NCBI GenBank assembly: GCA_000002445.1
Contig: CH464491.1
Location: forward strand, 4,704,001 to 4,768,000
Length of the DNA stretch: 64,000 bases
Direction: 5' to 3'
Origin: Trypanosoma brucei
Taxonomy: Eukaryota
Part shown: positions 1-64,000 of the stretch, one piece after another
How positions within the stretch are numbered: position 1 is the stretch's first letter
Layout: each line of letters begins with the position of its first letter
Program-made: the position numbers and the translations under genes
Notes under the pieces: model-generated
Told to the model about the DNA's origin: nothing
Database searches by the model: none
Seen by the model: only the letters and a program-made list of their open reading frames with translations

Positions 1-138
1 ATTATGAAGCCCACACCACCATAACCCGATCGTGGGTGGGTGGTTTTATAATGATAACTTCGTTTACCGGTGTTTTCATAGGGAGTAAAACTGTGGATGC
101 CATTTCTCTTGCTGGCTCTCTTCCCTCTGTGTCCTCCT

Positions 139-477
139 CTACCCTCGGACATTTCCCAGCATTTCTCCTTTCACTGTCATACACTTGAGGGTCCTTGGCC
201 CCGTAACCCTGGCCTCCTTAACGAAACATAACGTACTGTAGTGCCACAACTTCCCACATCGGAAGCATCGTATTGTGCAAACTCGGGGAGTCGGTTTTTG
301 AACTTTTAGGTATGCTTGATGGTATGGATCCTCGTCCCTCCTTGAGTCATGTAGTGCCTTTGCCAACGCTTCCACTCGCACCCCCGGGTGGGCTCTCGCC
401 GTTTGCAAGACTAGAAGATAAGTGTGAATCGACCTCCCGACTGTTATCCCACCTTCTGAGGGGCCTTCTGCTCCCAA
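139..477 (-). other. ORF fragment with a retroviral-type CCHC zinc knuckle (CFRCGKLWHYSTLC fits C-X2-C-X4-H-X4-C). Not a VSG. Possibly a remnant of a gag-like or nucleic-acid-binding gene cut by the window edge.
   Basis: Six-frame ORF 139..477 (-) contains the zinc-knuckle spacing. I recognised no other domain. Confidence 0.2.
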
Positions 478-1699
478 TGCAGTTATCCATGTCGCAAATC
501 GGTCCCAGACGCATTATAACCCGTAATCCGATTTTTGTGCTAACGGAAACAGTTATTTGTGTGCAACTAAAAAACTGTTCCGGTGATATTTCCGTCATGT
601 ATTCGATCTTCCCTTTAAACGTCCGTATATTTTCTTCAGAGGGAAAACCCTTGTCCACAAAGCTATTTTTTAACCGCCGAATGCCTCTGATTCCCACCTT
701 GGGGTTCCGTAATTCTGTACCGCTTGATTTCTGTACCAACTATGATTTGTATGACTCAAAAGGGAACTTTATTTCTATTCTACCTTTTCCTTTCGATCTG
801 ATTCATTCTTCACTCTCTCTTGTTCGAAAACTGGATCCGTTTTATGTGTGGCATCCGTATTTGCTAATATCTTCCAGTGGTGTAACTCAGCTGTTATCGA
901 TTCAATGACAACGTCCAACCTATTGATATGGAAGAGCATCTGTTCCATTTCCACTCTCAAAGCACAATTTTCTTGCATGAATCTTTCAACTTGCCCATTC
1001 AGTTCCATCGACTGGTTTTGCATTCTCCATCGCTCATCATTCATTTGTGCTCTTGTCATTTCGTACTGTTGGTATAAATTAGACTTATTTGCCTCTAGTG
1101 CTAGACATTCGTTACAAAACATCTATTTTCTTCGAACATAGGCAACAATTCAATGTTTTAGGGCATATTGAAGGAAACAAACGAGGTCCGTAAATCGACG
1201 AAATTTACCTGCCCATTGTCAAAAATCACTCGAAGCTCTCCATTGTCAAGCCTCACCAAACCGTCTACGTGTACCGCTGTATTTCCAAAAGGGGGACGAT
1301 AGTCGAATGAAAATGCAGTCCGACCGCACTATTCCTCAAAAGCCCTTATTTCTTTCAAACTTATTTTCCATTCGGCATCCAATATAGTTGGAGTGGTTTT
1401 CGTTAGCATCTCTCAAAACTTAGAGCGATAACTTACTTTTTAAAAAATTACTTACCTTTTTAAAAAACTGTCCTCCGTAATAGTTTTTCTTTGCATATAT
1501 AAGAAAGGAAAGAACGAATAACAAAGAAAGTGGTAAAGATGGACGATTCCTTTCGCAAGCTCCCAACATTTCAAAAATTAGAATAAATACAAATATATAC
1601 AAATTTGGTATAAAAGTGGCTTGTGGGCATAAAATAGTAGATTGATAGAGCACTAAAATAAGTGCCATTCCAATTTAATTTATTTTGTTTATTACATCG

Positions 1700-1885
1700 A
1701 TATTAGATACGGCTATAATAATAATTTTAATAACTAAATTGATAGTATAGTATTGTAAGTGTGTATATACTAATATTATAATAAGAGCAGTAATGATAGT
1801 AATAATAATAATAATGATAATGATAGGAGTGTGTTGTGACTGTGTATATACGAATAATATTGTAATATGAGTGATGGCAGAGAAA
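1700..1885 (+). repeat. VSG-associated 70-bp repeat tract, about 2 units, + orientation
   Basis: Contains GTGTGTATATACTAATATTATAATAAGAGCAGTAATGATAGTAATAATAATAATAATGATAATGATAGGAGTGTGTTGTGACTGTGTATATACGAATAATATTGTAATATGAGTGATGG. This is the canonical 70-bp repeat core plus a TRR triplet run. Confidence 0.8.
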
Positions 1886-2319
1886 ATATTTAGAAAAATA
1901 AATAGGAGCACTGAAAATAATGGCATGTGCGATTTCAAAGTGAGTGAAAAAGGGAGTAGAAGAGCTTGAGTTACATTATTAAAGCAAGCTGAAAAATGAA
2001 AGGAGAATGAGATATGGAATATGCGCGGCGTTACGCACAAACATGACTATGTGTATTATCATACACAAATAGAAGATAGAGGGATAAATAATAAAGGTAC
2101 AGAGTTCTTTGTACGGAACAACTGAGGTTTCTAATCTTTTCGCTGTGGCTGCGACGGAATACGAAAAAGGGGGAAATGAAGAAAATAGAGAGTGAAAAAT
2201 GATATGTAAAACATAAAGGTAAAATGATTGATATGTTTCCGATGGAAGCCGTTATTTAAATGAAAAAGGGACAGACTCTATCGAAGATGTGATGGAGACT
2301 GTAGTTTTTCAATCCCGTG

Positions 2320-61959: not shown

Positions 61960-62035
61960 TTATTATAATATTAAACTGTACACACTCACAACACTTCCTG
62001 TCATAACAATAATAATTATTATTTTTTTTAGTAGA
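61960..62035 (-). repeat. 70-bp repeat (- orientation)
   Basis: TATTATAATATTAAACTGTACACACTCACAACACTTCCTGTCATAACAATAATAATTATTATT. Confidence 0.75.
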
Positions 62036-62286
62036 ATAACCATAAGTTGCTCCTAATATCCATAGTATATAAAAAACAAACTAAATACGAATGCTAATCA
62101 ATATTTATATTTTTTACTCTACTAATTTACACATATGGGCCGCATTCATAAACATTTTGCTAGTATTTAATTTTTTTATTTTTACTAATTTTACATTTTC
62201 AATAAAAAAGTATTGGAGCCATCAAATTATAGAAAATTCTTACACAAAATAACTTTCTATTACTTCGAAAAATGGAGATAAAATCC

Positions 62287-63744
62287 TTAAAACAGCAAGG
62301 CCACAAATGCTGCAGAAACCACGCTGAGGGCCAGTTGTTTGTTTACTAGAATAGAGGAATCTTTGCACTTGTTATCTTCCCATTTGCAACCATCTTTGCA
62401 GTCTTCTTGTTTTTTCTTTTCGGAGCACTTTGAGTCAGTTTTTTGTTCTCCTGCAGCTCCATCTTCTGTTCCTGCTGCTTGTTCTTTTGCTTTTTGGGGG
62501 TCTAATGAGCATTTTTTGCTTGCATCAGTGGCATTTTCGTTCCATTTGCATGGTTCAGTGCATTCGGTTTTTGATTGGTGTTTGTTGCATTCTGGTTCCT
62601 TTTTTTTCGGATGTGCTGTCTGGTCGCCTGCTATTTTTTGAAGCTGAGGCTGGTCTCCTTTGAGCGCCTTGAGATATTCCTGTATCGCAATGCTGCGAAG
62701 ATGCCTTATTTCTGCTAGGGATGCCATGTTTTTAGATCTTTGTTCCGCGTGTTCAGCTAGTTTAGTTGCTGCTGTTTCCAGATGTCTCATCCACGGTATT
62801 GGCACCGTGCCGGTGCTTGTTGCCTTGTACTTTACGCAGCCGGCGTTCGCTACTCCGTTGCAGTTGACGCTGTTTGCCGTCCCGAGTATTAGATTGTTGG
62901 CTTGGGTGCTGCCGCCCTTGTCCTTTAAGCCGGTTATGAACGCTCCTATCGCCGCCTGTATTGCTGCCGCGCTAACTTTGGCCTTCCCGGCTGCCGGGAA
63001 GCCAGCGAGCAGCTGTGGGAAGCAAGTATGGGCTCCGCTTTGGTCATTGTATTGGCAGTCTTGGCCTCCCTGGGTCCCAAGGCACTCTTCGGCTTTGTTG
63101 CTGCCTGAATTTGAACCGAACATACACACTAGGTCCGACGCTAGCGACATGCCCGGCACCGCTGTACCCGACCCGGGTGCTGAGCATGCGTTGACTCCCG
63201 AAGCGCCGAAGGTTTCGCCCGCCTTTTGCGACAGTGCTTCGGTCGGGCCGTAGAGCGCCGTCAGCAGCGCTTCTTCCACCCCCGTTTTCTTTAATGGTTT
63301 GTAATCTTTGCGTCTTTCTAGAGCCATTTCCAGGGTTCTATTTATCACAACTGCCGCTGCCTGCCGGGCGTGGCTGTTGAGCGGCCGGGTGATTTTCAGA
63401 CCGTGTTTTTCCACTTTGTTGTTTTGTAGGTTTTTTTTGGCTGCATGCCAGGCCGCGCGGTGCTTTACCCAATTTGCTTCTGTGATCTTATTATTTGGAT
63501 CCTCCTTAAAGTCCTGGTTGTAGAAGTCGTCGTCTGCTACTGTTATATTTAGTTCTGTGAGCAAAGTTATTTCCTGACTTATAGCTGCGCCTTCGGTGTC
63601 TTCTGGCGTTGTTGGCTCCCCTCTTGCGATGTTTACAACTGCGCACAGGGTATGGTAGGCTGGTACGGCTTCATTGGCAGTTCCGCTGGCTCTGTACGCT
63701 AGTCGGGCAATGATCGCCAGCATTACAACAATGCTTGACGCCAT
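62287..63744 (-). CDS. Intact VSG of 485 aa (A-type N-domain with a canonical C-terminal domain and GPI signal)
   Basis: ORF 62287..63744 (-) starts MASSIVVMLAIIARLAYRASGTANEAVPAYHTLCAVVNIA and ends ...CSEKKKQEDCKDGCKWEDNKCKDSSILVNKQLALSVVSAAFVALLF*. Confidence 0.88.
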   Translation of the reverse strand: MASSIVVMLAIIARLAYRASGTANEAVPAYHTLCAVVNIARGEPTTPEDTEGAAISQEITLLTELNITVADDDFYNQDFKEDPNNKITEANWVKHRAAWHAAKKNLQNNKVEKHGLKITRPLNSHARQAAAVVINRTLEMALERRKDYKPLKKTGVEEALLTALYGPTEALSQKAGETFGASGVNACSAPGSGTAVPGMSLASDLVCMFGSNSGSNKAEECLGTQGGQDCQYNDQSGAHTCFPQLLAGFPAAGKAKVSAAAIQAAIGAFITGLKDKGGSTQANNLILGTANSVNCNGVANAGCVKYKATSTGTVPIPWMRHLETAATKLAEHAEQRSKNMASLAEIRHLRSIAIQEYLKALKGDQPQLQKIAGDQTAHPKKKEPECNKHQSKTECTEPCKWNENATDASKKCSLDPQKAKEQAAGTEDGAAGEQKTDSKCSEKKKQEDCKDGCKWEDNKCKDSSILVNKQLALSVVSAAFVALLF

Positions 63745-64000
63745 TTTTACTGTTTATTGGATGTGTTTTCTTTTTAATGGTGATAAGCTAGTTGATGAGT
63801 TTCAAGGCGTCTTGGGGGGAAACTATAGAGGTTTTACCGACCGGCCACGCTGAGATATGGCGTTACAAATTGTCTCTAAGATTCTTACTGCTGAAGTAAC
63901 TTACTTTGCGCTGTCCGCGGCCGCCGATCTGTCGTTAGCTCGTGTTTATGTATTTGGGTGCTACTTTTTAGTGTATTTATGTATTGGACTCGCTGCTTGT

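What the first reader, a model, noticed from the sequence alone, without database searches (positions are those of the whole stretch)
1..64000. The window is a trypanosome subtelomeric VSG array, not a prokaryotic locus
Three features recur together with ~3 kb periodicity. The 70-bp repeats have a GTGTTGTGAGTGTGTATATACGAATATTATAATAAGAG core plus TRR runs. The ~1.45-kb ORFs have Ala-rich helical N-domains, CxxC-rich C-domains and hydrophobic ...SAAFVALLF tails. The 3'UTRs carry TGATATATTTTAACAC-like 16-mers. This combination is diagnostic of Trypanosoma brucei-group VSG arrays. Prokaryotic defence-system models do not apply here, and I found no support for a new system in that sense.
Basis: partly seen in the sequence, partly recalled or inferred. 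Interest (0 to 1): 0.5.

Follow-up and report, generated by a model that had tools for sequence, protein, structure and literature searches.

The report
Silent trypanosome VSG gene array
The window is an ordinary silent archive of surface-coat (VSG) genes and pseudogenes from a Trypanosoma brucei-group parasite, essentially identical to Trypanosoma equiperdum OVI; this is a well-known structure, not a bacterial locus or a new system.

Summary
About 20 VSG genes, pseudogenes and fragments fill the window. Pfam matches them to the A-type, B-type and C-terminal VSG domains, with E-values down to 1e-98. A published 70-bp repeat unit from a T. brucei expression site finds 17 co-oriented copies, each 0.8-1.6 kb upstream of a VSG. 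16-mer-like elements lie downstream of the stop codons. One ORF is 100% identical to an annotated T. equiperdum VSG, and two T. equiperdum OVI contigs match the window at 99.8-100%. Bacterial genomes and defence-system models give nothing relevant.

- Two arrays converge, + strand at 1-30 kb and - strand at 36-64 kb, on a degenerate ~5.1 kb ingi retrotransposon.
- Only 3 of about 15 full-length VSGs have intact ORFs.
- Three ESAG3 pseudogenes sit inside cassettes and lengthen the - strand units to about 4 kb.
- A 321-bp ingi 5' fragment fuses two VSGs.
- The exact 16-mer and the exact SAAFVALLF tail each occur once.
- The left edge carries a probable VIPER-type gag remnant.

Everything fits the published description of T. 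brucei-group VSG arrays. Verdict: already known, low interest.

The parts
1718..1865 (+). two 70-bp repeat units (1718-1798 and 1805-1865) upstream of VSG U1
   Evidence: 78% and 84% identity to a published BES1 unit
3288..4812 (+). VSG U1, A-type pseudogene with a frameshift near 3794/3800
   Evidence: PF00913 on both ORF halves (6e-26 and 2e-28)
5049..5221 (+). perfect (TAATAG)20 tract (5049-5168) running into a 70-bp repeat unit (5147-5221)
   Evidence: 85% identity over 75 nt
5983..7541 (+). VSG U2, pseudogene read in three frames. The C-terminal domain is recognised; the N-domain is not covered by Pfam.
   Evidence: PF10659 3e-13 on 7083-7541
7775..7943 (+). two 70-bp repeat units (7775-7849 and 7871-7943)
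9520..11085 (+). VSG U3, A-type pseudogene in several frames, with a 16-mer-like TGATATGTTTTGACAC at 11102-11117
   Evidence: PF00913 6e-10
11290..11351 (+). 70-bp repeat unit
12916..14340 (+). VSG U4, intact A-type ORF of 474 aa from the first ATG, with a signal peptide and the tail ...SNSIVIYKVSLLLAFILL. A 16-mer-like element with 2 mismatches lies at 14388-14403.
   Evidence: PF00913 5.9e-98; PDB MITat 1.1
14580..14639 (+). 70-bp repeat unit
15579..17089 (+). VSG U5, B-type pseudogene with a frameshift inside the C-terminal domain
   Evidence: VSG_B 3e-36 and PF10659
17326..17386 (+). 70-bp repeat unit
18900..20379 (+). VSG U6, B-type pseudogene with a degenerate 5' part; 16-mer with 1 mismatch at 20443-20458
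   Evidence: VSG_B 5e-28 and PF10659 6e-10
20641..20714 (+). 70-bp repeat unit preceded by (TAA)12
21753..23181 (+). VSG U7, pseudogene. Its N-domain class is not covered by Pfam. Its tail is ...NSFVINREPLLLAFLIL.
   Evidence: similar to VSG P0026 (1.8e-7) and to U14 (3.7e-6); C-terminal and 3'UTR DNA similarity to U4 and U10
23467..23537 (+). 70-bp repeat unit
24425..24907 (+). VSG U8a, a 5' fragment of a B-type VSG
   Evidence: VSG_B 1.8e-10, profile positions 2-111
25133..26744 (+). VSG U8b, B-type pseudogene in several frames; 16-mer-like element at 26815-26830
   Evidence: VSG_B 5.6e-24
27843..28939 (+). ESAG3 pseudogene directly upstream of VSG U9
   Evidence: cluster members named ESAG3; 52-58% identity over residues 1-368, in frames 3/2/3
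29100..30190 (+). VSG U9, B-type, frameshifted and lacking its C-terminal domain; it ends at the ingi element
   Evidence: VSG_B 1e-14 up to profile position 351/352
30200..35326 (-). Degenerate full-length ingi-type non-LTR retrotransposon of about 5.1 kb at the point where the two arrays converge. The 5' end at 35326 is precise. The 3' end lies between about 30190 and 30420 and is approximate.
   Evidence: Exo_endo_phos_2, RVT_1, RNase_H and C2H2 in that order on four separate ORFs; 5' CCCTGGCG... with CGTG at +25 to +28; 2A-like DVEENPGP
35330..36200 (-). Putative degenerate VSG 5' half cut off by the ingi 5' end. This is not confirmed by any profile.
   Evidence: A-rich coding-like frames. 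Position about 1.3 kb downstream of the partial 70-bp core at 37547-37560. Searches found no match.
37888..39338 (-). VSG U10, A-type pseudogene with one frameshift before the C-terminal domain. Tail ...NSFIINKAPLLLAFLIL. (GT)35 lies upstream at 39923-39993.
   Evidence: PF00913 2.9e-46
41382..41447 (-). 70-bp repeat unit
41730..43226 (-). VSG U11, B-type, full length but with a single in-frame stop at 42306-42308. It is close to T. brucei Lister 427 VSG 490.
   Evidence...KYDNA*CDGS versus ...KYDNAGCDGS in P0023; tblastn 955 bits
43666..44668 (-). ESAG3 pseudogene between a 70-bp repeat and VSG U11
   Evidence: 75-77% DNA identity to the other two copies
45368..45426 (-). 70-bp repeat unit followed by (TAA)12
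45575..45590 (-). the only exact copy of the VSG 3'UTR 16-mer TGATATATTTTAACAC, downstream of pseudogene U12
   Evidence: motif as published in PMC9044945
45654..47278 (-). VSG U12, B-type pseudogene in several frames
47490..48573 (-). ESAG3 pseudogene between 70-bp repeats and VSG U12
49442..49589 (-). two 70-bp repeat units (49442-49503 and 49513-49589)
49852..51324 (-). VSG U13, intact B-type ORF of 490 aa with an atypical C-terminal tail (...ALMVSSSVILVILQHYKDICSIL)
   Evidence: VSG_B 5.5e-68 and PF10659 9e-21; 100% identical to 'VSG, atypical, putative [T. equiperdum]'
52840..52883 (-). partial 70-bp repeat about 1.5 kb upstream of U13
   Evidence: 44 nt at 89% identity
53250..54941 (-). 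VSG U14, pseudogene of the same Pfam-invisible N-domain class as U7
   Evidence: U14 N-terminal ORF versus the U7 ORF, 3.7e-6
55496..55540 (-). 70-bp repeat unit, left half only
   Evidence: 45 nt at 96% identity
55859..56760 (-). VSG U15, degenerate B-type fragment
   Evidence: tblastn at 55766-56209; C-terminal DNA similarity to U3
57544..57606 (-). 70-bp repeat unit
57914..58470 (-). VSG U16b, the 3' part of a B-type VSG from ...DIPWVNNLE to the hydrophobic tail; 16-mer-like element at 57779-57794
58494..58814 (-). 321-bp fragment of ingi holding only its 5' end (Pr77 plus the 2A-like region), joining U16a to U16b
   Evidence: 95% identity to 35006-35326; each OVI contig crosses one of its two junctions
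58815..60280 (-). VSG U16a, B-type, with an open N-domain (452-aa ORF); its C-terminal domain is interrupted by the ingi fragment
   Evidence: VSG_B 5.7e-74; annotated in T. equiperdum OVI contig CZPT02001047.1
61944..62019 (-). 70-bp repeat unit
62287..63744 (-). VSG U17, intact B-type ORF of 485 aa with the canonical tail ...CKDSSILVNKQLALSVVSAAFVALLF
   Evidence: VSG_B 1.3e-68 and PF10659 5.4e-25; PDB VSG 6ELC, 2.8e-35

Best explanation
The window is part of the silent VSG archive of a Trypanozoon trypanosome, T. equiperdum OVI or a near-identical strain.

It consists of tandem VSG cassettes. Each cassette has one or two 70-bp repeat units. A spacer of 0.8-1.6 kb follows, which in three cassettes holds an ESAG3 pseudogene. 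Then comes a VSG coding region of about 1.5 kb and a short 3'UTR with a 16-mer-like element. The next 70-bp repeat lies about 230-370 bp after the stop codon. Two such arrays, on opposite strands, converge on a degenerate ingi retrotransposon.

How it works is inferred from the published model and was not tested here. These genes have no promoter of their own and are not expressed in place. A cassette, or a segment of one, is copied by gene conversion into the single active telomeric expression site. The 70-bp repeat supplies the upstream homology. The conserved C-terminal and 3'UTR sequence supplies the downstream homology. This changes the parasite's coat and evades host antibody.

Intact genes (U4, U17 and perhaps U13) can be copied whole. 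The pseudogenes, which are most of the cassettes, can contribute only segments to mosaic VSGs. Because the 16-mers of the intact genes are degenerate, the downstream conversion boundary would need to leave the expression site's own 16-mer in place for high expression.
For: Protein family:
- Pfam A-type, B-type and C-terminal VSG domains match ORFs throughout the window.
- All 33 relatives in a 5.8-billion-protein search are VSGs; 32 are named Trypanosoma VSGs and one is unnamed with VSG Pfam domains.
- Solved VSG structures match by sequence.

Source organism:
- One ORF is 100% identical to a T. equiperdum VSG.
- OVI contigs CZPT02001854.1 and CZPT02001047.1 match at 99.8% and 100%.

Cassette syntax:
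- 17 hits to a published BES1 70-bp unit pass the published criteria, and all are co-oriented with the VSGs.
- The distance from repeat to VSG start is 762-1562 bp, and from VSG end to the next repeat 231-371 bp. PMC4858185 reports about 1.5 kb upstream.
- 16-mer-like motifs follow the stop codons. The motif and its role in expression are in PMC9044945.

Archive character:
- 3 of about 15 full-length VSGs are intact. [quoted passage not shown]
- There are no telomere repeats, no tRNA genes and no Rfam RNA families.

Mechanism: gene conversion from arrays into the expression site via 70-bp repeats, and mosaic formation from pseudogenes, as described in PMC4858185 and PMC3467770.
Against: Nothing contradicts the identification. 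The limits are these:
- Chromosomal position (subtelomeric or not) cannot be read from the window.
- No expression or recombination data exist for these particular cassettes.
- Three N-domains (U2, U7, U14) are not recognised by Pfam. They are assigned as VSGs from context, C-terminal domains and weak similarity to a VSG whose N-domain Pfam also misses.
- The fragment at 35330-36200 is only a putative VSG.
- I could not check the convergent junction at the ingi in an independent assembly. A scaffolding join there cannot be excluded.
Confidence: 0.97

Rival explanations
1. The window is a telomeric VSG expression site (bloodstream or metacyclic), transcribed in place, rather than a silent array.
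For: 70-bp repeats, VSGs and ESAG3-related sequences are all components of bloodstream expression sites (PMC4858185; ESAG3 names).
Against: An expression site has one terminal VSG behind a long tract of 70-bp repeats (39 units in BES1) and next to the telomere. Here about 20 VSG elements lie in tandem, with one or two repeat units each. There are no TTAGGG repeats. The ESAG3 copies are frameshifted pseudogenes lying downstream of the repeats. Most of the VSGs are pseudogenes.
Confidence: 0.01
2. The window is a prokaryotic locus, possibly carrying a reverse-transcriptase-based defence system.
For: PADLOC RT models (Cas-associated RT, DRT types) hit the ORF at 32835-33944.
Against: That ORF is the RT of an ingi-type LINE. 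It is flanked by an AP endonuclease and RNase H, and carries a Pr77 5' end and a 2A-like peptide. The PADLOC hits reflect the generic RT fold. Nine other proteins gave no PADLOC hit. A scan of 185,579 bacterial and archaeal genomes found no VSG relative. All protein relatives found are VSGs, 32 of the 33 named as Trypanosoma.
Confidence: 0.002
3. The window is real VSG array sequence, but the convergent arrangement around the ingi (30-36 kb) is an assembly or scaffolding artefact that joins two unrelated array pieces at a repeated element.
For: Both short OVI contigs that I could retrieve end inside the other ingi copy at 58.5-58.8 kb, which shows that ingi sequences break this assembly. I could retrieve no independent contig spanning 30.2 or 35.3 kb. 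No target-site duplication flanks the element.
Against: The ingi is contiguous and complete from its exact +1 to an A-rich 3' region, with no run of N in the stretches read at its two ends. The absence of a target-site duplication and the two truncated flanking VSGs are equally well explained by a real ingi-associated rearrangement. Strand switches are ordinary in trypanosome chromosomes.
Confidence: 0.12

Closest known systems
Silent VSG arrays of T. brucei TREU927 and Lister 427 (the 'VSG archive'; PMC3467770, PMC4858185)
   Same: The cassette syntax is the same: a short 70-bp repeat tract, a spacer, a VSG and a 3'UTR with a 16-mer. Pseudogenes predominate, A-type and B-type N-domains are mixed, and ingi and ESAG3 pseudogenes are interspersed. 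Individual VSGs have relatives of 74-85% identity in the T. brucei Lister 427 and EATRO1125 repertoires.
   Different: The organism differs: T. equiperdum OVI, a tsetse-independent Trypanozoon. I saw no structural difference.
T. equiperdum OVI draft assembly GCA_001457755.2, contigs CZPT02001854.1 and CZPT02001047.1
   Same: The contigs are 99.8% identical over 8,982 bp and 100% identical over 1,892 and 1,618 bp to window 49544-58525 and 58783-64000. The VSGs at 49852-51324 and 58922-60280 are annotated there.
   Different: The window is contiguous where the draft breaks inside the ingi fragment. It also fills a 10-N gap inside VSG U17. As a result the intact U17 is not annotated in the draft, which instead annotates an antisense ORF of 187 aa.
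Bloodstream VSG expression sites (BES) of T. brucei (PMC2567434)
   Same: They share the 70-bp repeat sequence, the VSG family, ESAG3 and the 3'UTR 16-mer.
   Different: A BES has a promoter, a full set of intact ESAGs, tens of 70-bp units, a single VSG and a telomere. The window shows none of these except the repeat sequence itself.
Solved VSG structures: VSG3 (PDB 6ELC/7P59) for B-type and MITat 1.1 (5LY9, 5M4T) for A-type
   Same: U17 aligns over residues 24-485 with E = 2.8e-35. U4 aligns to both the MITat 1.1 N-domain and its C-domain.
   Different: Sequence identity is low, as is usual between VSGs. No structure was predicted here.
ingi/L1Tc clade of non-LTR retrotransposons (PMC5814959)
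   Same: It has the AP endonuclease, RT, RNase H and C2H2 domains in the same order, the Pr77 hallmark with CGTG at +25 to +28, and a 2A-like peptide near the 5' end.
   Different: The reading frame is broken into at least four pieces, so the copy is dead. No clear poly(A) tail or target-site duplication was found.
Silent-cassette antigenic variation in bacteria (Anaplasma msp2 pseudogenes, cited in PMC3467770; Borrelia vls cassettes, from my own knowledge)
   Same: The logic is the same: promoterless donor cassettes, many of them incomplete, are copied by gene conversion into one expression site.
   Different: The proteins, repeats and scale are unrelated, and the host is eukaryotic. This is an analogy only, not family membership.

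Membership tests
Trypanosoma brucei-group VSG proteins | N-terminal domain of A-type (PF00913) or B-type (PF13206) above the gathering score | tested here: met
   met for U1, U3, U4, U5, U6, U8a, U8b, U9, U10, U13, U16a and U17 (bit scores 39-329, cut-offs 22-25). U2, U7 and U14 are not recognised.
Trypanosoma brucei-group VSG proteins | Cys-rich C-terminal domain (PF10659) | tested here: met
   met for U2, U5, U6, U13 and U17. U4 matches the MITat 1.1 C-domain structure 5M4T.
Trypanosoma brucei-group VSG proteins | N-terminal signal peptide and hydrophobic C-terminal GPI-addition signal | tested here: met
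   Read directly from the translations. The U17 tail SVVSAAFVALLF is identical to the tails of named VSGs P0009, P0010 and P0015. U4 and U10 have the ...SNS(I/F)...LLLAF(I/L)L type. The U13 tail is atypical. No signal-peptide or GPI predictor was run.
Trypanosoma brucei-group VSG proteins | Forms the surface coat and undergoes antigenic switching | not testable with these tools
   This needs expression data such as VSG-seq or proteomics.
70-bp repeats of Trypanozoon | Sequence match to published BES repeats (at least 45 bp and at least 70% identity, the criteria of PMC4858185) | tested here: met
   17 passing hits and one of 44 bp. The query was taken from the paper's S1 dataset.
70-bp repeats of Trypanozoon | Adjacent TRR/(TAA)n tract, and a position roughly 1-2 kb upstream of a VSG on the same strand | tested here: met
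   Searches show the tracts. One search gives distances of 762-1562 bp. All repeats are co-oriented with the VSGs.
Silent (array) VSG archive as opposed to an expression site | Many tandem cassettes with short repeat tracts, most of them pseudogenes | tested here: met
   About 20 VSG elements, 1-2 repeat units each, and 3 intact of about 15 full-length VSGs.
Silent (array) VSG archive as opposed to an expression site | No telomere repeats next to the VSG | tested here: met
   no (TTAGGG)3 at up to 1 mismatch.
Silent (array) VSG archive as opposed to an expression site | Subtelomeric position on a megabase chromosome | not testable with these tools
   The window has no chromosomal coordinates. 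only shows that the U13 protein also occurs on a contig of 5.26 Mb.
VSG 3'UTR 16-mer | TGATATATTTTAACAC within about 150 nt after the stop codon | tested here: met
   one exact copy and five with 1-2 mismatches, against 0.09 expected. The three intact ORFs have only degenerate versions: 2 mismatches, 3 mismatches, and a poor match.
ingi/L1Tc non-LTR retrotransposons | AP endonuclease, RT, RNase H and C2H2 domains in order; Pr77 5' hallmark; 2A-like peptide | tested here: met
   domains; 5' sequence with CGTG at +25 to +28, as described in PMC5814959; DVEENPGP.
ingi/L1Tc non-LTR retrotransposons | Single long ORF, poly(A) tail and target-site duplication (an intact, recently inserted copy) | tested here: not met
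   At least four ORF pieces. There is only an A-rich 3' region, and no flanking direct repeat. It is a degenerate member of the clade, not an active one.
ESAG3 | Full-length similarity to named ESAG3 proteins | tested here: met
   52-62% identity across residues 1-368 in three copies. All three copies are frameshifted, so they are pseudogenes.
Prokaryotic anti-phage defence systems (PADLOC) | Hits to system-specific proteins in a prokaryotic gene context | tested here: not met
   only generic RT-fold hits to the ingi RT; no relative of the VSG in bacterial or archaeal genomes.
VIPER (tyrosine-recombinase retrotransposon) gag-like ORF, considered for window 1-1200 (-) | CX2CX4HX4C box in a gag-like ORF; similarity to reference VIPER copies; adjacent YR and RT/RNase H ORFs | tested here: inconclusive
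   The CH-box CFRCGKLWHYSTLC is present. The relatives are multi-copy uncharacterised proteins of T. congolense, T. vivax and T. theileri. PMC6681497 reports this box in VIPER gag. I made no comparison with a VIPER reference, and the rest of the element would lie beyond the window's left edge.

The most novel reading that the evidence does not exclude
The two ingi sequences may record retroelement-driven remodelling of the VSG archive. Under this reading, the full-length ingi at 30.2-35.3 kb is the breakpoint of an inversion that set two arrays head-on. It lies between two VSGs that face each other, both lacking their 3' ends, and it has no target-site duplication. The 321-bp ingi piece at 58.5-58.8 kb holds only the element's 5' end, which target-primed reverse transcription cannot produce. 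It would mark a deletion that fused two VSGs into one chimeric cassette. If such events are frequent in the clonal, tsetse-independent T. equiperdum lineage, ingi would be a measurable driver of archive turnover there.
Probability: 0.3. Interest if true: 0.25.

Novelty: already known. Interest (0 to 1): 0.08.

Why it matters
For the scan, the main value is triage. The window is eukaryotic parasite DNA, and prokaryotic gene or defence models should not be applied to it. One such model does fire falsely, on the ingi reverse transcriptase. Biologically, this is a textbook piece of the trypanosome antigenic-variation archive. The gains are small. There is a cassette-by-cassette map for a T. equiperdum array. 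One intact VSG (62287-63744) is missing from the draft OVI annotation because of an assembly gap. The intact genes here carry degenerate 16-mers.

Tried and rejected
- A fuzzy-regex scan for the 70-bp core timed out. I replaced it with blastn-short and then blastn with a published repeat unit.
- Pfam found nothing for the N-domains of U2, U7 and U14, for the fragment at 35.3-36.1 kb, or for the ORFs at 1-1200, even at E up to 5. The 35.3-36.2 kb fragment remains putative.
- Exact-protein look-ups failed for U17, U4, U10, the ingi ORFs, the U9 ORFs and the left-end ORF. The ingi junction could therefore not be checked in another assembly.
- The word-indexed search found nothing for the left-end ORF. 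The exhaustive HMMER search did find relatives.
- A search for a target-site duplication around the ingi found only chance-level short repeats.
- Rfam and tRNA scans were empty.
- Full-text searches for the 70-bp core sequence found no paper. The sequence was found in a supplement instead.
- An automatic scan for hydrophobic C-terminal tails was too noisy to use, so the tails were read from the ORF translations.
- I asked whether U16b could be the missing 3' part of U9. It cannot: the two overlap in the IPW... region instead of complementing each other.

Full report
**Observation.**
- The 38-nt 70-bp-repeat core has 4 matches at up to 3 mismatches, against none in 100 shuffles.
Seventeen hits pass that paper's own criteria of at least 45 bp and at least 70% identity, and one more is 44 bp long.
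- Ten hits lie on the + strand between 1.7 and 23.5 kb. Eight lie on the - strand between 41.4 and 62.0 kb.
- TAA/TGA/TAG tracts adjoin them. One is a perfect (TAATAG)20 at 5049-5168.
- The 16-mer TGATATATTTTAACAC is the published VSG 3'UTR motif (PMC9044945). It has 6 matches at up to 2 mismatches against 0.09 expected. Each match is co-oriented with a VSG and lies shortly after its stop codon.

**Proteins.**
- Pfam places ORFs all along the window in Trypan_glycop (A-type), VSG_B and Trypan_glycop_C, with E-values down to 5.9e-98.
- A search of 5.8 billion proteins with the ORF at 49852-51324 returned 33 hits, all VSGs; 32 are named Trypanosoma VSGs and one is unnamed but has VSG Pfam domains. 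The best is 100% identical and is named 'VSG, atypical, putative [Trypanosoma equiperdum]'. T. brucei VSGs follow at 74-85% identity.
- The ORF at 62287-63744 aligns to solved VSG structures, including 6ELC at E = 2.8e-35. The ORF at 12916-14340 aligns to MITat 1.1.

**Source.**
- The T. equiperdum OVI contig CZPT02001854.1 matches window 49544-58525 at 99.8%.
- Contig CZPT02001047.1 matches 58783-60674 and 62383-64000 at 100%.
- The window fills a 10-N gap of that draft inside the VSG at 62287-63744. This explains why that intact gene is not on record. The draft annotates an antisense ORF of 187 aa there instead.
- The window therefore comes from T. equiperdum OVI or a near-identical Trypanozoon.

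**Negative checks.**
- A scan of 185,579 bacterial and archaeal genomes found no relative of the VSG.
- PADLOC hit only the retrotransposon RT, with generic RT models.
- There are no tRNA genes and no Rfam families, and no telomere repeats.

**Anatomy.** The + strand carries ten VSG elements:

| Unit | Coordinates | Type and state |
|---|---|---|
| U1 | 3288-4812 | A-type, frameshifted |
| U2 | 5983-7541 | three frames |
| U3 | ~9520-11085 | A-type |
| U4 | 12916-14340 | A-type, intact |
| U5 | 15579-17089 | B-type, frameshift in the C-domain |
| U6 | ~18900-20379 | B-type |
| U7 | 21753-23181 | pseudogene |
| U8a | 24425-24907 | B-type 5' fragment |
| U8b | 25133-26744 | B-type |
| U9 | 29100-~30190 | B-type, no C-domain |

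The - strand carries nine or ten:

| Unit | Coordinates | Type and state |
|---|---|---|
| putative fragment | 35330-36200 | unconfirmed |
| U10 | 37888-39338 | A-type, one frameshift |
| U11 | 41730-43226 | B-type, a single in-frame stop |
| U12 | 45654-47278 | B-type pseudogene |
| U13 | 49852-51324 | intact, atypical tail |
| U14 | ~53250-54941 | pseudogene |
| U15 | 55859-~56760 | fragment |
| U16a | 58815-60280 | B-type, C-domain interrupted |
| U16b | 57914-58470 | 3' fragment |
| U17 | 62287-63744 | intact, canonical ...SAAFVALLF tail |

Cassette spacing is regular.
- The last 70-bp unit lies 762-1562 bp upstream of the VSG start.
- The next 70-bp unit lies 231-371 bp after the VSG end.
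- Repeat spacing averages 3.1 kb on the + strand and 4.1 kb on the - strand.

Only 3 of about 15 full-length VSGs have intact ORFs. This is in line with the published statement that some two-thirds of array VSGs are pseudogenes (PMC3467770).

**Interspersed elements.**
- Three stretches of about 1.1 kb, 75-77% identical to each other, are ESAG3 pseudogenes: 27843-28939 (+), 43666-44668 (-) and 47490-48573 (-). Each lies between a 70-bp repeat and a B-type VSG. This accounts for the longer - strand units.
- At 30.2-35.3 kb (-) lies an ingi-type LINE. It has AP endonuclease, RT, RNase H and C2H2 domains on four separate ORFs.
- Its 5' end begins CCCTGGCG..., with CGTG at +25 to +28. This is the Pr77 hallmark described in PMC5814959. 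It also encodes a 2A-like DVEENPGP.
- The two arrays converge on this element, and both flanking VSGs lack their 3' parts. I found no target-site duplication.
- A second piece, 58494-58814 (-), is 95% identical to the first 321 nt of the ingi. It joins the interrupted C-domain of U16a to the 3' part of another B-type VSG.
- A fragment holding only the 5' end cannot come from target-primed reverse transcription, which truncates 5' ends. I infer that it is the scar of a later deletion.
- The two OVI contigs each cross one of its junctions.

**Mechanism.** This part is inferred from the literature and not tested here.
- The cassettes are promoterless donors.
- Gene conversion copies one of them, or a segment, into the active telomeric expression site. 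The 70-bp repeat gives upstream homology, and the conserved C-terminal and 3'UTR sequence gives downstream homology (PMC4858185 and PMC3467770).
- Intact genes can be copied whole. Pseudogenes contribute segments to mosaic genes.
- The 16-mer is needed for high VSG expression (PMC9044945). The three intact ORFs here have only degenerate versions of it. Productive conversion of these genes probably ends upstream of the resident 16-mer.

**Comparison and verdict.** The window matches the published description of Trypanozoon silent VSG arrays in every feature I could test. It is not an expression site: it has many VSGs, short repeat tracts, no telomere, and only pseudogenised ESAG3. It is not prokaryotic. 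Novelty: already known. Interest is low.

The least ordinary reading still open is that the two ingi sequences record an inversion and a deletion that reshaped this array. Retroelement-associated rearrangement is not new for trypanosome subtelomeres (my own knowledge). The ingi junction could not be confirmed in an independent assembly.

Noticed in passing
window 1-1200 (- strand; ORFs 778-1122, 350-739, 142-513, 5-217): This is a non-VSG element at the left edge, with a coiled-coil ORF and an ORF holding a CX2CX4HX4C zinc knuckle (CFRCGKLWHYSTLC). Its only full-length relatives are multi-copy uncharacterised proteins of T. congolense, T. vivax and T. theileri (E down to about 1e-13); the remaining hits are generic CCHC-knuckle repeat proteins. 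It is probably a degenerate VIPER-type gag remnant that runs off the window.
   Followed up: partly
window 27843-28939 (+), 43666-44668 (-), 47490-48573 (-): Three frameshifted ESAG3 pseudogenes, 75-77% identical to each other. Each lies between a 70-bp repeat position and a B-type VSG, that is, inside the cassette rather than upstream of the repeats as in expression sites.
   Followed up: yes
window 30200-35326 (-): The + strand and - strand VSG arrays converge on a degenerate full-length ingi. Both flanking VSGs lack their 3' ends, and no target-site duplication was found. This could be an inversion breakpoint or an assembly join.
   Followed up: partly
window 58494-58814 (-): A 321-bp ingi fragment holding only the element's 5' end (exact +1, Pr77, 2A-like peptide) fuses a nearly complete VSG (58815-60280) to the 3' part of another VSG (57914-58470). 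Both public OVI contigs break inside it.
   Followed up: yes
window 62326-62382; L002 7178-7187: The public T. equiperdum OVI draft has a 10-N gap inside this VSG, and the window has 57 bp there. The intact 485-aa VSG is therefore absent from the draft annotation. An antisense 'shadow' ORF (window 62690-63253, +) is annotated as a gene instead.
   Followed up: yes
window 14388-14403, about 49770-49785, about 62205-62220: The three intact VSG ORFs have only degenerate 16-mers (TGATATATATTAACTC; TTATACATTTTAATAC; TGATGGCTCCAATAC). The single exact 16-mer, at 45575-45590, follows a pseudogene.
   Followed up: partly
window 5049-5168 and 39923-39993: A perfect (TAATAG)20 forms the TRR part of one 70-bp repeat. 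A perfect (GT)35.5 microsatellite lies in the spacer upstream of VSG U10.
   Followed up: no
window 32835-33944 (-): PADLOC defence models (Cas-associated RT 9.8e-34, DRT types) hit the ingi reverse transcriptase. This is a false positive to expect whenever prokaryotic defence scans are run on eukaryotic LINE-bearing DNA.
   Followed up: yes
window 21753-23181 (+) and 53250-54941 (-): Two VSG pseudogenes share an N-domain class that neither Pfam VSG model detects, even at E up to 5. The class resembles the N-domain of a named VSG-family protein (P0026) that also has only the C-terminal Pfam domain.
   Followed up: partly
window 24425-26744 (+): One cassette holds two VSG_B starts: a 5' fragment (24425-24907) followed by a second, nearly full-length pseudogene (25133-26744), with no 70-bp repeat between them.
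   Followed up: partly
after VSG 3'UTRs, e.g. window ~1615-1640, ~11160-11185, ~14495-14515, ~26895-26920, ~41530-41555 (-): A short conserved motif of the form TGG(N)TATGGGTGTAAAGTAG recurs between the 3'UTR and the next 70-bp repeat in most cassettes. The coordinates are approximate, derived from the printed sequence.
   Followed up: no
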